Positions 41,522 through 64,000 of a DNA stretch of 64,000 nucleotides are shown here, piece after piece; the stretch's first letter is position 1, and the number at the start of each line of letters is the position of its first letter. The stretch comes from Eledone cirrhosa. Its lineage: Eukaryota. A program made the translations under genes and the position numbers. The stretch covers positions 31,062,001 to 31,126,000 of the forward strand of contig OZ024753.1 of the NCBI GenBank assembly GCA_964016885.1, given 5' to 3'. The notes under the pieces are model-generated. The model had not been told where the DNA came from, did not search any database, and was given only the letters and a program-made list of their open reading frames with translations.

Positions 41522-41589
<68 letters not shown>

Positions 41590-41598
<9 letters not shown>

Positions 41599-42940
41599 TA
41601 AACATACATATCTTTACTTCAATAGAAAATCTGAACTCTGACACCCCAGCGAACTAACCATATTCACTGAACCAGAACAATTCTCCCAATCCCATTTCTC
41701 TTGACCACTATCTTTCCATTGTCATAACATTCGCTATAAAGGCTACAGAATAGTTTTCCAAATAAGGGCGCAAAAATGTAATGAAAACTTGTTCACATGA
41801 CAGCCAAATTTCATTTATAACCAATCAAATCACGTTTATTAAAAAAAAAGCCTTCGTGAGCCACCTTTTTTTAAAGTAAAGAAATTCAAACACACACAAG
41901 CACACAAATAAACATACATATCTTTACTTCAATAGAAAATCTGAACTCTGACACCCCAGCGAACTAACCATATTCACTGAACCAGAACAATTCTCCCAAT
42001 CCCATTTCTCTTGACCACTATCTTTCGATTGTCATAACATTCGCTATAAAGGCTACAGAATAGTTTTCCAAATAAGGGCGCAAAAATGTAATGAAAACTT
42101 GTTCACATGACAGCCAAATTTCATTTATAACCAATCAAATCACGTTTATTAAAAAAAAAGCCTTCGTGAGCCACCTTTTTTTAAAGTAAAGAAATTCAAA
42201 CACACACAAGCACACAAATAAACATACATATCTTTACTTCAATAGAAAATCTGAACTCTGACACCCCAGCGAACTAACCATATTCACTGAACCAGAACAA
42301 TTCTCCCAATCCCATTTCTCTTGACCACTATCTTTCGATTGTCATAACATTCGCTATAAAGGCTACAGAATAGTTTTCCAAATAAGGGCGCAAAAATGTA
42401 ATGAAAACTTGTTCACATGACAGCCAAATTTCATTTATAACCAATCAAATCACGTTTATTAAAAAAAAAGCCTTCGTGAGCCACCTTTTTTTAAAGTAAA
42501 GAAATTCAAACACACACAAGCACACACATAAACATACATATCTTTACTTTATTCAATAGAAAATCTGAATTCTGACACTCCAGCGAACTAACCATATTCA
42601 CTGAACCAGAACAATTCTCCCATCCCTTTCTCTTGACCATTATCTTTCACTATCTGAGTTCAAATCCCGCCGAGGTTGACTTTGCCTTTCATCCTTACGG
42701 GGTCGATAAAATAAAGTACCAGTAATGCACTGGGTAATTGCTGGCCTTGTGCCTAAAGTAGAAACAATTATCTTTCACTTATCAAAAATTCTCTAAAAAG
42801 GCTACAGAATGGATTTCCAAATAAGGGCACAAAAATTTAATGAAAACTTGTTCACGTGACAACCATAATTTCATTTATGACCAACCAAAAATAAGCCTTC
42901 GTGAGCCTCCTTTTTTCAAGTAAAAAGAAATTCAAACACT
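41590..42940. repeat. 310-bp tandem repeat (3 near-identical units plus one diverged, SINE-interrupted unit)
   Basis: aatagaaaatctgaa at 41621, 41931, 42241 and 42555. Confidence 0.95.
42652..42766 (+). mobile_element. 5'-truncated SINE with 13-bp target-site duplication
   Basis: attatctttcact at 42639-42651 and 42767-42779. Confidence 0.85.
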
Positions 42941-49931: not shown

Positions 49932-50030
49932 ATATATACATATATAGTATTAAGGATACTATTTATGGTTATGTATATACTAAAACTTTTTATAGTTATA
50001 TATATTTTAAACCCTAAACAGTGAAAGACA

Positions 50031-51580
50031 AAAATATGTAAGCGGGCCTTAGCAACTCCACTGAAGATGCTCTTCAGAAGCTCCTTGGCTAGCGGTGTAC
50101 TACCCAGGGAGCTGAAAGAAGGCACAATATGCCCTATCCATAAAGGAGGTAGTAGAGCGGAGGCCAAGAACTATAGGCCAGTCTCCCTGACGTCGCATAT
50201 CAGTAAGGTCATGGAGCGAGTCATCAGAAAGAAACTAATCACTTTCCTCGAAGAAAATGACCGCCTGACTAGCACGCAACATGGCTTCCGCCCAGGAAGA
50301 AGCTGCCTTACACAGCTGCTACATCACTACGACTGGGTACTGAGACAACTACTAGACAGCTCACATGTGGACGTGATATATCTTTGACTTTGCGAAGGCC
50401 TTTGACAAGGTCGACCACGGAATGATATGTCACAAACTACACGGACTCGGCATAACTGGAAAAGTAGGTGAGTGGCTGCATGGCTTCCTAAGGGACAGAA
50501 GCCAGGCAGTCGCAGCAAATGGGGCCCTCTCAAAGGAAACACCAATAACAAGTGGGGTGCCCCAGGAGACAGTCCTGGGACCACTACTGTTTTTGGTGGC
50601 TCTCTCGGACATGCCCTCTGTGGTGCATGCAACAACATCCCTCACTAGCTATGCTGATGACACTAAGGTAGCACAGGCAATCAAAAACCCGGCTGACGCT
50701 GCCCTTTTACAGCAGGATCTGGATGCCATATACAGATGGGCGGAAGAAAACAACATGCAGTTTAATGCTGGCAAATTCCAAGCCCTACAATACAAACCTG
50801 CAAACACAAATATAGTGGAACACAGCTACACTGTGCATAGACATGAGCGATGATGCATCTTTTTCTTCACACATCATGAAGGTGGCGACAACATGTAGAC
50901 GATTCGCTGGCTGGATCTTGAGGACTTTGCTTACAAGAGATCGAGACACCATGTTGACACTGTGGAGGACTTTTGTCCTAAGCCGCCTGGACTACTGCTC
51001 CCAGCTGTGGTCACCCCATAGTGTCAAACTAACCACGGAGCTTGAGGCAATCCAGCGAAGCTACACCAAGATTGCCAAGATGAGGGAGACAAGCTACTGG
51101 GAGAGGCTGAAGGAACTGAACCTCTACTCCTTGGAGCGAAGACGGGAGAGATACGCAGTGATCTACATGTGGAAAATCCTGGAGGGACTAGCACCAAACT
51201 TTGGCATTGGGAGCTTGACCAACCGCCGAACAGGACGTCACTGTGTGGTGGCAAAGGTCCCGTCTTCCACATCTAGAATAAGGAGCAGGTATTGCAATAG
51301 CCTGGGATTCAAGGGCCCTCAACTCTTCAACAGGCTGCCGAGGCATCTGAGAGACTTGCATGACGTGGAGGTGGATGTCTTTAAGAAACATTTCGACGCC
51401 TTGTTATCCAGGATCCTGGATGAGCCCACAGCAAGACATGAGGGAAACCTAAGGGCAGCAGCAACAAACTCCCTCCTACACCAGTGGCCAACCTATACAG
51501 GTTGGAGATAAAATGTGTAGCAACAAGGGCGGTGCCCCAGCATGGCCTCAGCCGGATGGCTGAAACAGGTAAAAGAGTAA
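50031..51580 (+). mobile_element. 5'-truncated CR1-group LINE, frameshifted RT and 3' end
   Basis: NYRPVSLTS, QHGFRPGRSCLTQL, VDVIYL/DFAKAFDKV, SGVPQETVLGPLLF, YADDTK, RLDYCSQLWSP and LYSLERRRER. Flanked by (TA)n. Confidence 0.95.
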
Positions 51581-59194: not shown

Positions 59195-59487
59195 CTACCT
59201 TCCTACAAACCTACATACCTTCACACATACATACATACAATCATCCACACACACACACACATACAATCATATATATATATACATATATACATACACACCT
59301 TCCTGCATACATAAAATGTTCTATTGACTATGAACACGAGCTATATCTTTTCAATTTAATGTGCTCGTTTCTTTAACCTAACATATACACCCTCCTGAAA
59401 TAGATCGTCTTGCTTCGTTCACAGTAAAAATTATGCATTCTATATAACTACATACATATCAGAGTATTGGCGAAGTTAAACACCTCA

Positions 59488-59903
59488 ACAACATGTGTAC
59501 CCGTCTCTACCACACCAATTCGGATTGCCTGAAGAGGTCACAGCCAAAGATGGCTGTCACCGAAATATAACAACATGTGTACTCGTCTCTACCACACCAA
59601 TTCGGACTGCCTGAAGAGGTTACAGCCAAAGATGGCTGTCACCGAAATATGACAACATGTGTACCCGTCTCTACCACACCAATTCGGACTGCCTGAAGAG
59701 GTCACAGCCAAAGATGGCTGTCACCGGAATATAACATGTGTACCCGTCTCTACCACACCAATTCGGATTGCCTGAAGAGGTCACAGCCAAAGATGGCTGT
59801 CACTGAAATATAACAACATATGTACCCGTCTCTACCACACCAATTCGGACTGCCTGAAGAGGTCACAGCAAAAGATGGCTGTCACCGAAATATATATAGC
59901 AGT
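59488..59903 (+). repeat. 82-bp tandem array (5 units) of hammerhead cores; last unit complete
   Basis: Each unit has CTGAAGA-ggtcacagcc aaagat ggctgtcacc-GAAAtat (one unit reads GGAA). The last unit, 59849-59903, reads actgc-CTGAAGA...GAAA tatata TA-gcagt. Confidence 0.85.
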
Positions 59904-61562: not shown

Positions 61563-61652
61563 TATATGCAAAGAGATATTTCATTTGTTGGTTATTCAAC
61601 AAATTTATTTATAACAGATTCGAAGCACTCTACAGTTTTTCCGGAGTATAAA

Positions 61653-61938
61653 ATCAATGATATTAATAAATGGAAACTATCTTTATAAAACCATATTTAT
61701 TCTATTATATATATTTCAAGGGTACCAACATTTTGGTACGCTCTAATCAGATAAAATACAAAAGTAGTTTCATAAACTGAACTTAAAACGATCAGTTCTT
61801 GTTTTGGATATGTCAATATTTATAAAACTACTTTTGTATTTTATCTGATGAGAGCGTACCAAAATTTTGGTACCCTTCAAATATATATAATAAAGTAAAT
61901 ATGGTTTTATAAAGATAGTTTCCATTTATTAATATCAT

Positions 61939-61942
<4 letters not shown>
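61653..61942. mobile_element. Inverted pair of family-B HHR terminal repeats
   Basis: 61653-61776 is the reverse complement of 61819-61942. Each arm has an HHR with a different core mutation. Confidence 0.8.
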
Positions 61943-62473: not shown

Positions 62474-62539
62474 TATTTTATCTGAAGAAGGCATGTCATA
62501 TTTTTAATATGATATCCCTGAAATATGTATAATGAAATA
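62474..62539 (+). ncRNA. Type I hammerhead ribozyme (family B)
   Basis: tattttat-CTGAAGA-aggcatgtcatatt ttt aatatgatatccct-GAAA tatgta TA-atgaaata. Confidence 0.75.
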
Positions 62540-62579: not shown

Positions 62580-62633
<54 letters not shown>

Positions 62634-62641
<8 letters not shown>

Positions 62642-64000
62642 TTGGAATAAATGCTCTGAAATAGCGATATATATGTGAATATAGACATAGAATATTCGAA
62701 AATATTCTGTATGTTTATAATAAACATTTTGAAGACCTAATCGCTATAGAATAGAATACGTCACGTATTACAATTAGATTCTCGATAAAAGCAAGGGAAG
62801 TAATCTACGCGTTTCATTCTTATTAGAAATCTTCAGGACTACATATCCAGTGCTTTTATCGAGAATGACACAGCTAGAGACTTATAGAATACTTAGCTGT
62901 GTACAGGAACTGGTTTGAAAGAGCGGTTGCCGGTCCGGCAGAAATTAGAAATTGGAATAAATGCTCTGAAATAGCGATATATATGTGAATATAGACATAG
63001 AATATTCGAAAATATTCTGTATGTTTATAATAAACATTTTGAAGACCTAATCGCTATAGAATAGAATACGTCACGTATTACAATTAGATTCTCGATAAAA
63101 GCAAGGGAAGTAATCTACGCGTTTCATTCTTATTAGAAATCTTCAGGACTACATATCCAGTGCTTTTATCGAGAATGACACAGCTAGAGACTTATAGAAT
63201 ACTTAGCTGTGTACAGGAACTGGTTTGAAAGAGCGGTTGCCGGTCCGGCAGAAATTAGAAATTGGAATAAATGCTCTGAAATAGCGATATATATGTGAAT
63301 ATAGACATAGAATATTCGAAAATATTCTGTATGTTTATAATAAACATTTTGAAGACCTAATCGCTATAGAATAGAATACGTCACGTATTACAATTAGATT
63401 CTCGATAAAAGCAAGGGAAGTAATCTACGCGTTTCATTCTTATTAGAAATCTTCAGGACTACATATCCAGTGCTTTTATCGAGAATGACACAGCTAGAGA
63501 CTTATAGAATACTTAGCTGTGTACAGGAACTGGTTTGAAAGAGCGGTTGCCGGTCCGGCAGAAATTAGAAATTGGAATAAATGCTCTGAAATAGCGATAT
63601 ATATGTGAATATAGACATAGAATATTCGAAAATATTCTGTATGTTTATAATAAACATTTTGAAGACCTAATCGCTATAGAATAGAATACGTCACGTATTA
63701 CAATTAGATTCTCGATAAAAGCAAGGGAAGTAATCTACGCGTTTCATTCTTATTAGAAATCTTCAGGACTACATATCCAGTGCTTTTATCGAGAATGACA
63801 CAGCTAGAGACTTATAGAATACTTAGCTGTGTACAGGAACTGGTTTGAAAGAGCGGTTGCCGGTCCGGCAGAAATTAGAAATTGGAATAAATGCTCTGAA
63901 ATAGCGATATATATGTGAATATAGACATAGAATATTCGAAAATATTCTGTATGTTTATAATAAACATTTTGAAGACCTAATCGCTATAGAATAGAATACG
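62634..64000 (-). mobile_element. 310-bp tandem array with one HHR per unit (non-LTR retrozyme-like)
   Basis: attggaataa at 62641, 62951, 63261, 63571 and 63881, with units identical by eye. Minus-strand HHR gtagtc-CTGAAGA-tttc taataa gaat-GAAAC gc GTA-gattac. Confidence 0.85.
62800..62842 (-). ncRNA. Type I hammerhead ribozyme of the retrozyme unit (also 63110-63152, 63420-63462, 63730-63772)
   Basis: Intact CUGANGA/GAAA/GUA core, palindromic stem III (acgcgt), and stem I extended by a 16-bp helix beyond an internal loop. Confidence 0.85.

What the first reader, a model, noticed from the sequence alone, without database searches (positions are those of the whole stretch)
62634..64000. Homogeneous 310-bp hammerhead tandem array: candidate active retrozyme making a structured circular RNA
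Seen: at least 4.4 apparently identical 310-bp units run off the window end, each with an intact minus-strand type I HHR. The unit is extensively self-complementary. Pairs in the first unit are atagcgat 62661 / atcgctat 62740, the hairpins agaatatt-cgaa-aatattct (62689), tgtttataataaaca (62712) and aatacg-tca-cgtatt (62755), a perfect 16-bp helix attctcgataaaagca 62778 / tgcttttatcgagaat 62851 enclosing the HHR, acacagcta 62868 / tagctgtgt 62894, and tgccgg-t-ccggca 62928. No ORF is present. Known: animal non-LTR retrozymes are short tandem repeats with type I HHRs that self-cleave into monomers and circularise. Inference: this is a young, viroid-like 310-nt circRNA-producing family, probably inserted by rolling-circle reverse transcription into (TA)n.
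Basis: partly seen in the sequence, partly recalled or inferred. Interest (0 to 1): 0.88.

Follow-up and report, generated by a model that had tools for sequence, protein, structure and literature searches.

The report
Two-armed ribozyme retroelement, Penelope-type insertion
This is one of more than a thousand young genomic insertions of a 310-base non-coding repeat with a hammerhead-ribozyme motif, and their back-to-back arms with two fixed start points suggest that a Penelope-type transposon enzyme likely copied one small RNA, probably a circle, round and round from both ends of a cut in the DNA.

Summary
It is 4.65 identical 310-bp units, an inversion, then 1.29 units the other way, with (TA)n on both sides. 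The genome has 18,113 such hammerhead cores and at least 1,350 insertion ends. Arms start at two fixed sites, A and B, about 30 nt apart, and every inward-facing pair tested is A+B (54 of 54). The two arms share one sequence variant (100 of 101; 0.13 by chance) and read through the predicted cut site. This is an animal non-LTR retrozyme carrying the Penelope-like (PLE) footprint: inverted copy, tail at one end, (TA)n target. A young Hydra-type PLE with intact ORFs, a similar hammerhead core and the same A+B ends is in the genome. Likely mechanism: two-ended target-primed rolling-circle reverse transcription of a circular RNA. Not shown: cleavage, expression, circularity, which PLE is the partner. 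The scan reported this family before on other DNA of this genome.

The parts
62581..62633 (.). (TA)n microsatellite, left target flank
62634..64000 (-). Arm A of the insertion: head-to-tail identical 310-bp units, hammerhead (RNA) sense on the minus strand. It continues 74 bp past the window end (4.65 units in all, L001 634-2074), inverts at a 3-nt microhomology, and arm B (400 bp, 1.29 units, L001 2072-2471, RNA sense on plus) runs into (TA)n
62634..62641 (-). Start zone A ('tail' end). This locus starts at unit position 1; the usual start is position 8 (62641); positions 3 and 5 also occur
62667..62674 (-). Start site B (unit positions 34-41, a short AT run that merges with the target (TA)n); used by the opposite arm of each two-armed insertion
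62800..62842 (-). Type I hammerhead motif, unit 1: 6-bp stem I, CUGAAGA core, 4-bp stem II with a U-U at its base, GAAA, one-pair stem III with a palindromic CGCG loop; predicted cut 62806|62805
63110..63152 (-). Hammerhead motif, unit 2
63420..63462 (-). Hammerhead motif, unit 3
63730..63772 (-). Hammerhead motif, unit 4
62778..62866 (-). Perfect 16-bp helix (62778-62793 with 62851-62866) that extends stem I and is predicted to hold the two ends of a cut monomer together; repeated in each unit

Best explanation
This is one insertion of a young animal non-LTR retrozyme, built as two back-to-back multimeric arms in (TA)n, and it was likely written into the genome in one event by a Penelope-like (PLE) reverse transcriptase that primed from both ends of a cut and copied one 310-nt RNA, probably a circle, round and round. 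Steps. (1) Inferred: arrays are transcribed, the hammerhead cuts out monomers (predicted to work as a dimer, since stem III is one pair plus a palindrome) and a ligase closes them. (2) Inferred from known PLE chemistry: the GIY-YIG nuclease cuts both strands of (TA)n. (3) Shown in the DNA: one target end is joined to site A, the other to site B, never the same site twice. (4) Shown: each arm passes the predicted cut site repeatedly and carries the same variant as the other arm; inferred: rolling-circle synthesis on one circle by a two-active-site complex. (5) Shown: the arms meet at scattered positions, mostly with a few bases of overlap; inferred: end joining. (6) Shown in a few long arrays: later local expansion makes them mosaic. 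The best partner candidate is the young Hydra-type PLE of this genome; that it is the partner is not shown.
For: Ends: 987 type-A and 1,350 type-B (TA)n junctions genome-wide. On contig 1 up to 201.7 Mb, 73 A and 100 B ends gave 54 inward-facing pairs, all 54 A+B. In fetched loci 104 of 106 adjacent inverted arm pairs were A+B; the other two are inner pieces of one four-piece locus, L051. One template: within-locus deviation 123 of 124,272 bases against 0.99% between loci, 21 haplotypes in 42 loci (49 insertions, L051, L059, L089, L090 left out); arms agree in 100 of 101 insertions, chance 0.13; 53 of 61 arrays of 5 or more units have no recurrent minor variant. Read-through: both arms exceed one unit in 81 of 102; 1 of 204 inner ends lies at the cut site; no deletion at unit 168-177 in 1,153 passes and no base inserted at the cut in 1,143 anchored of 1,174 passes. 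Monomer bottleneck: one variant occurs in only five loci, and no other locus has a run as long as the 13-copy arm of L077; another variant is scattered in a mosaic 46-unit array but pure in L042. Arm lengths correlate weakly (rho 0.29, p 0.003, n 102). Ribozyme under selection: all 9 locus-fixed variants inside the hammerhead spare the core and the helices, where 46 of 129 possible changes would (p about 1e-4). PLE footprint: inverted copy, 30-40 bp tail at one end, (TA)n target (PMC8557442, passages); two internal RT start sites, both strands extended, predicted dimer (PMC11167929, main text parts 1-2). Partner candidate: 30,315 motif hits, hammerhead region running into a 713-aa RT + GIY-YIG ORF, dozens of copies at 98-100% identity with open frames, 8 of 8 end pairs A+B, 28 nt at 89% identity with the retrozyme hammerhead.
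Against: No cleavage, RNA or circle was observed. The active hammerhead fold costs 6.7 kcal/mol over the best fold, and stem II pairs with probability about 0.16 in the monomer. Outside the hammerhead core, BLAST found no likeness between the retrozyme's start module and the ends of the Hydra-type PLE copies inspected, and its two start sites are about 65 nt apart, not about 30 (part's output was cut); several other PLE families are present. In vitro, the anole PLE used uncut RNA as its main template (PMC11167929), which leaves a linear multimer possible. Some loci are not single-variant: L098 and L108 switch variant inside arm A, L065 alternates in both arms as a dimer template would, and L089 and the 46-unit array are mosaic. 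Three variants that looked private among 42 loci proved to be shared by other loci. Over the whole unit, the absence of core variants alone is not significant (0 of 37; about 1.3 expected from the 33 of 930 share).
Confidence: 0.72

Rival explanations
1. Same PLE-type two-ended priming, but the template is an uncut linear multimer transcribed from a parent array; no circle is needed.
For: Uncut RNA was the main substrate of the anole PLE in vitro (PMC11167929). The hammerhead is predicted to be weak as a monomer. Variants are shared among several loci, so homogeneous parents exist. L065 shows the same two-unit alternation in both arms.
Against: A daughter arm cannot be longer than its parent, yet arms reach 27-30 units and L077 has no parent long enough in this assembly (a parent on the other haplotype or lost is possible). 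A variant scattered in a mosaic array is pure elsewhere. Only 1 four-piece locus was seen among about 105 two-armed ones, so parents' inversion joints are rarely copied. Selection on the hammerhead suggests cutting matters.
Confidence: 0.16
2. Monomers or short copies insert, and the arrays grow in place by unequal exchange or slippage, as proposed for vertebrate retrozymes.
For: Model stated in bioRxiv 10.64898/2026.07.22.740005 (Discussion). Long arrays do show higher-order repeats and mosaic variants.
Against: Does not explain two inverted arms with non-integer lengths, fixed A+B ends, scattered inner ends, or one variant across both arms. Typical arrays have almost no internal variation.
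Confidence: 0.04
3. The reverse transcriptase jumps from one cut linear monomer to the next (template jumping) to build the multimer.
For: Rare variant switches within an arm (L098, L108).
Against: Jumps should mix variants, leave added or lost bases at the cut, and end arms there. Arms are pure, the cut site is clean, and 1 of 204 ends lies at it.
Confidence: 0.04
4. The mobilising enzyme is not a PLE but a LINE, by L1-type twin priming.
For: LINE RT fragments are common here (window 50.0-51.5 kb). Twin priming gives inversions (recalled, not read).
Against: No poly(A) or 3' tail; both starts are internal and fixed; in L1 twin priming the first cDNA should stop near the second primer's site (recalled), but inner ends are scattered. 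A PLE in the same genome shows the same A+B rule.
Confidence: 0.03
5. Assembly artefact: a single copy expanded by the assembler.
For: All units at this locus are identical.
Against: 18,113 cores, locus-specific variants, the head-to-tail joint in contigs of four public studies.
Confidence: 0.01

Closest known systems
Animal non-LTR retrozymes (Cervera and de la Pena 2020, PMC7229834: abstract, passages and Discussion read)
   Same: 170-400-nt non-coding tandem unit with a type I hammerhead, thousands of copies, PLEs in the same genome. The one-pair stem III with a palindromic tetraloop and the U-U at the base of stem II match features described for the axolotl motifs. The paper proposes target-primed copying of the circle into tandem cDNA by a LINE or PLE.
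   Different: In the parts read, there is no account of inverted two-armed insertions, fixed paired start sites or microsatellite targets; the mobiliser and the circular template are proposed, not shown. Expression and cleavage are shown there and untested here.
Penelope-like elements: insertion structure (Craig et al. 2021, PMC8557442: passages and section 11) and in vitro mechanism (Frangieh et al. 2024, PMC11167929: parts 1-2 of 4)
   Same: Inverted truncated copy, a 30-40 bp tail often at one end only, (TA)n target, two internal RT start sites downstream of a hammerhead, both target strands extended.
   Different: The cargo is a non-coding 310-nt unit and both arms are multimers. The genomic data show a strict one-of-each use of the two sites, whereas the in vitro work saw no difference in start site between strands, and Craig et al. 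ascribe the tail to nuclease resolution.
Retrozymes as non-autonomous PLE derivatives (Li, Clavereau and Pollet, bioRxiv 10.64898/2026.07.22.740005: abstract to methods, passages and Discussion; supplements closed)
   Same: Links retrozymes to PLE ends by co-occurrence and phylogeny.
   Different: Proposes growth of tandem arrays by local amplification; here typical arrays look born as multimers. The word search found no 'orientation' or 'insertion site' in its main text.
L1 twin priming (recalled)
   Same: Both target ends prime cDNA, giving an inversion with microhomology.
   Different: No poly(A), fixed internal starts, multimeric arms, inner ends not tied to the second primer site.

Membership tests
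Animal non-LTR retrozyme | Tandem unit of about 170-400 nt | tested here: met
   310 bp
Animal non-LTR retrozyme | Type I hammerhead in every unit | tested here: met
   Motif and helices in all four full units; variants spare core and helices. Rfam gives no gathering-score match.
Animal non-LTR retrozyme | Non-coding, no LTRs | tested here: met
   Longest ATG frame 31 codons; flanks are (TA)n
Animal non-LTR retrozyme | Many dispersed arrays; PLEs in the same genome | tested here: met
Animal non-LTR retrozyme | Self-cleavage of the transcript | not testable with these tools
   Needs an in vitro assay
Animal non-LTR retrozyme | Monomeric linear and circular RNA accumulates | tested here: inconclusive
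   No RNA run available to test; only contigs of unknown kind
PLE-mobilised insertion | Inverted, inwardly truncated second copy | tested here: met
PLE-mobilised insertion | 30-40 bp tail at one end only / two internal start sites | tested here: met
   A and B are 26-33 nt apart (up to 40 with the minor A sites); 54 of 54 pairs A+B
PLE-mobilised insertion | (TA)n target | tested here: met
PLE-mobilised insertion | Sequence shared with the end of an autonomous PLE | tested here: inconclusive
   Hammerhead core shared (28 nt, 89%); start module not matched in the copies inspected
Hydra clade of PLEs (the candidate partner) | C-terminal GIY-YIG, RWK-like motif, DKT, CxCX5C linker, hammerhead, (TA)n target | tested here: met
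   RWR, DKT and CxCX5C in the 713-aa ORF against the description in PMC8557442 section 11; the Pfam GIY-YIG match is below cut-off (E 0.019)
Hydra clade of PLEs (the candidate partner) | Groups with Hydra RTs in a tree | not tested
   No reference Hydra proteins were fetched
Viroid or viroid-like satellite RNA | RNA-to-RNA replication with ribozymes on both strands, no DNA stage | tested here: not met
   Hammerhead motif on one strand only; abundant DNA copies with a retrotransposition footprint

The most novel reading that the evidence does not exclude
A dimeric PLE reverse transcriptase grips one ribozyme-made RNA circle at two sites about 30 nt apart, loads one target end on each, and runs two rolling-circle syntheses at once, so a whole inverted satellite array is born in one step. 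This would explain the PLE tail and inversion by one rule, name the retrozyme mobiliser, and, if the excess of RNA-sense A-to-G among locus-fixed variants comes from ADAR, mean that RNA editing of the circle feeds the family's evolution.
Probability: 0.45. Interest if true: 0.8.

Novelty: new variant of a known kind. Interest (0 to 1): 0.62.

Why it matters
Which enzyme moves animal retrozymes, whether the template is a circle, and how PLEs come by their one-sided tail and inverted arms are open questions in the papers read (PMC7229834, PMC8557442, PMC11167929, bioRxiv 10.64898/2026.07.22.740005). This family gives more than a thousand young insertions with a strict, countable rule, a 310-nt substrate with mapped start sites, and a young PLE with intact ORFs in the same genome, so an in vitro test of the kind already done for the anole PLE can be set up directly. 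It also shows a route by which tandem arrays can arise in one step and not by slow expansion.

Tried and rejected
DNA search of the own genome with the whole unit returned nothing, not even the window's own place (common words are skipped), so exact patterns were used. Rfam at gathering scores: no match. Sequencing runs: no RNA holder listed. Four runs of unrecorded kind were laid on the unit and on the PLE end; three hold one 340-nt contig that closes on itself, which a tandem DNA array also gives, and contig depths cannot rank levels, so nothing follows for expression. 'Private' variants as proof of a circle: three were checked genome-wide and all occur at other loci; only the 85 variant, whose list is complete, gives a limited argument. 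Search for a PLE sharing the retrozyme's start module: 18 diverged copies of the Hydra-type family plus three others, no match beyond the hammerhead in the part of the output seen. The ORFs at window 50.0-51.5 kb, first taken for the PLE through a coordinate slip of mine, are a LINE-type RT fragment. Structural selection across the whole unit: the excess of pair-keeping variants comes almost wholly from A-to-G changes (10 of 12; other fixed variants keep 2 and break 9), so it cannot be told from editing; no ADAR neighbour preference was seen in 12 sites. Target-site duplications cannot be read inside (TA)n. Literature searches: retrozyme/hammerhead/octopus, Penelope-like internal initiation (18), Penelope pLTR inverted tail hammerhead (28), retrozyme target-primed circRNA tandem (82), twin priming Penelope (83); none of the listings or passages seen describes two-armed retrozyme insertions. 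The library lacks most subscription papers, and supplements were not read.

Full report
Observation. From 62634 to the window end there are four full 310-bp units and 127 bp, with no difference between them, directly after (TA)n. Each full unit has a type I hammerhead motif on the minus strand: a 6-bp stem I, the CUGAAGA core, a 4-bp stem II with U-U at its base, GAAA, and a stem III of one pair with a palindromic CGCG loop; the cut is predicted between 62806 and 62805. The monomer folds better than every shuffle, linear (z -3.7) and circular (z -4.5). Stem I forms in the best fold, while the full active fold costs 6.7 kcal/mol more; two stem III palindromes can pair with each other, as in the dimeric amphibian hammerheads described in PMC7229834 (passages). 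There is no ORF of note. Rfam finds nothing at gathering scores.

The hidden half. The window is G000:C13:31062001-31126000 in a 3.0-Gb assembly. Earlier AI notes call it an octopus; I did not test that. The next DNA shows 4.65 units, an inversion at a 3-nt microhomology, and 1.29 units in the other direction ending where the unit's own AT run merges into (TA)n; all of it is identical to the first unit.

The family. The exact core of this locus occurs 2,575 times and a degenerate core 18,113 times, with no hit for the reversed control. The 14 loci behind the first 100 hits, and this one, showed the same build. Arms begin at site A (unit position 8; also 1, 3, 5) or site B (34-41). There are 987 exact A junctions and 1,350 B junctions with (TA)n. 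Among the listed ends on contig 1 up to 201.7 Mb (73 A, 100 B), 54 inward-facing pairs lay within 20 kb and all 54 were A+B; 19 A and 46 B ends were unpaired. Of those unpaired ends 37 were fetched: most had a partner of the other type with a variant junction, two had a very short second arm, and about nine were one-armed or ran into a gap. Over all fetched loci 104 of 106 adjacent inverted arm pairs were A+B, the two others being inner pieces of one complex locus; the loci taken from the list of pairs are A+B by selection, so one search is the cleaner test.

One template per insertion. In 49 two-armed insertions (four loci left out as complex or cut off) copies deviated from their locus majority at 123 of 124,272 bases, while loci differed by 0.99% and 42 well-covered loci held 21 haplotypes. 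The two arms carried the same haplotype in 100 of 101 insertions, against 0.13 for random loci. 53 of 61 arrays of five or more units had no recurrent minor variant. Both arms were longer than one unit in 81 of 102; inner ends were spread over the unit (chi-square p 0.07) and 1 of 204 lay at the cut site; arm lengths correlated weakly (rho 0.29). The cut site was passed 1,153 times without a deletion, and none of 1,143 anchored passes (of 1,174) had a base inserted at the cut; 80 had a one-base insertion two to three bases away in stem I, which fits the 311-bp arrays seen. This argues against jumping between cut monomers and against growth in place as the usual origin. Circle versus uncut linear multimer is less settled. 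For the circle: one variant occurs in five loci only and no other locus has a run as long as L077's 13-copy arm, and a variant scattered through a mosaic 46-unit array is pure in L042. Against a strict single-monomer rule: L098 and L108 switch variant inside arm A, L065 alternates in both arms, L089 and the 46-unit array are mosaic with higher-order repeats, and the three 'private' variants checked are shared by other loci.

The ribozyme is kept. In 130 loci, 37 distinct locus-fixed variants were found; none is in the 11 core positions (not significant alone), and the nine inside the hammerhead all fall at the variable N7 position, loop II, the U-U mismatch or pair-keeping positions of stem I, where 46 of 129 possible changes would (p about 1e-4). 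Twelve of the 37 are A-to-G in RNA sense, against 13 of 122 single-copy changes (p 0.003) and 5 U-to-C (p 0.03); ADAR editing of the template and tolerance of G-U pairs both fit.

The PLE link. PLE insertions are known to have an inverted truncated copy, a 30-40 bp tail often at one end, and (TA)n targets (PMC8557442). The anole PLE starts reverse transcription at two adjacent internal sites that bound the tail, cuts and extends both target strands, and is predicted to be a dimer; uncut RNA was its main substrate (PMC11167929). The A-to-B distance here is 26-33 nt. A family with a nearly identical hammerhead core lies in this very window (6783-7380 and 9460-9990) and has 30,315 motif hits. In L195 and L200 its hammerhead region runs into a 713-aa ORF with RT and C-terminal GIY-YIG motifs and the RWR, DKT and CxCX5C marks given for the Hydra clade (Pfam GIY-YIG below cut-off). 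Dozens of copies are 98-100% identical over the 200 residues searched, many with the 758-codon frame open, and 8 of 8 end pairs found are A+B. But its start sites are about 65 nt apart and I found no likeness to the retrozyme's start module, and other PLE families are present, so it is a candidate only. A 320-nt sister family (1,858 motif hits) shares the start module and the A and B ends but has a different hammerhead, which marks that module as the likely recognition element.

Mechanism and standing. Most likely: transcription, hammerhead cleavage and ligation give a 310-nt circle (inferred from the family, PMC7229834); a PLE nuclease cuts (TA)n; the two ends prime at A and B on one RNA; both run round the circle; the two cDNAs are joined. 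The end rule, read-through and shared variant are shown in DNA; cleavage, expression, circularity and the partner are not. Copying of the circle into tandem cDNA by a LINE or PLE was proposed in 2020, and a PLE origin with local array growth in 2026. I found no description of two-armed retrozyme insertions in five searches or in the parts of four papers read; supplements were not read. Verdict: a member of a known class by every sequence feature tested, in a form that gives genomic evidence for a proposed but unshown step: new variant of a known kind, interest 0.62. The scan has reported this family before on other pieces of this genome with the same reading, and A-to-G footprints in related elements; I had reached both readings before those look-ups (notes), and they are not independent support.

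Noticed in passing
window 6783-7380 and 9460-9990: Inverted pair of ends (A and B type) of the Hydra-type PLE family, each with a canonical type I hammerhead; an RT fragment 58% identical to the intact ORF lies between them at 8338-8715.
   Followed up: yes
L050 4318-4815; L131-L160: Sister family of about 320 nt with the same start module and A/B ends but another hammerhead (long stem III); many copies have U and A at core positions 3 and 8 in place of C and G.
   Followed up: partly
L156-L158 (G000:C1:56,078,500-56,078,900): Three tandem copies of a 163-nt derivative of the sister family that has lost the hammerhead but keeps the start module and begins at an A-type (TA)n junction.
   Followed up: no
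L091-L093 (G000:C1:217.795-217.810 Mb): 46-unit mosaic arm with an 11-unit higher-order duplication; a possible source locus for several haplotypes.
   Followed up: partly
L098 and L108: The outermost units of arm A carry a different variant from the rest of the insertion: a template switch, an edit during copying, or gene conversion.
   Followed up: no
130 fetched loci: Excess of RNA-sense A-to-G among locus-fixed variants (12 of 37), a possible trace of ADAR editing of the template.
   Followed up: partly
window 59487-59894: Five copies of an 82-bp tandem unit with a minimal hammerhead-like core on the plus strand.
   Followed up: no
window 31660, 35996, 36452, 46624, 62482; inverted pair about 61570-61940: Further hammerhead-like cores with long stem II in short elements flanked by (TA)n, probably ends of other PLE families; the retrozyme sits in the (TA)n just after the one at 62482.
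   Followed up: no
window 41580-42648: Another tandem array with period 310 (3.4 copies, 98% alike), unrelated in sequence to the retrozyme unit.
   Followed up: no
window 50025-51511: Frameshifted LINE-type reverse transcriptase fragment.
   Followed up: partly
L041, L103, L129; L095, L118, L130; L113; L196, L111, L004: Fragments of several other PLE families in the flanks, one with its own hammerhead.
   Followed up: partly
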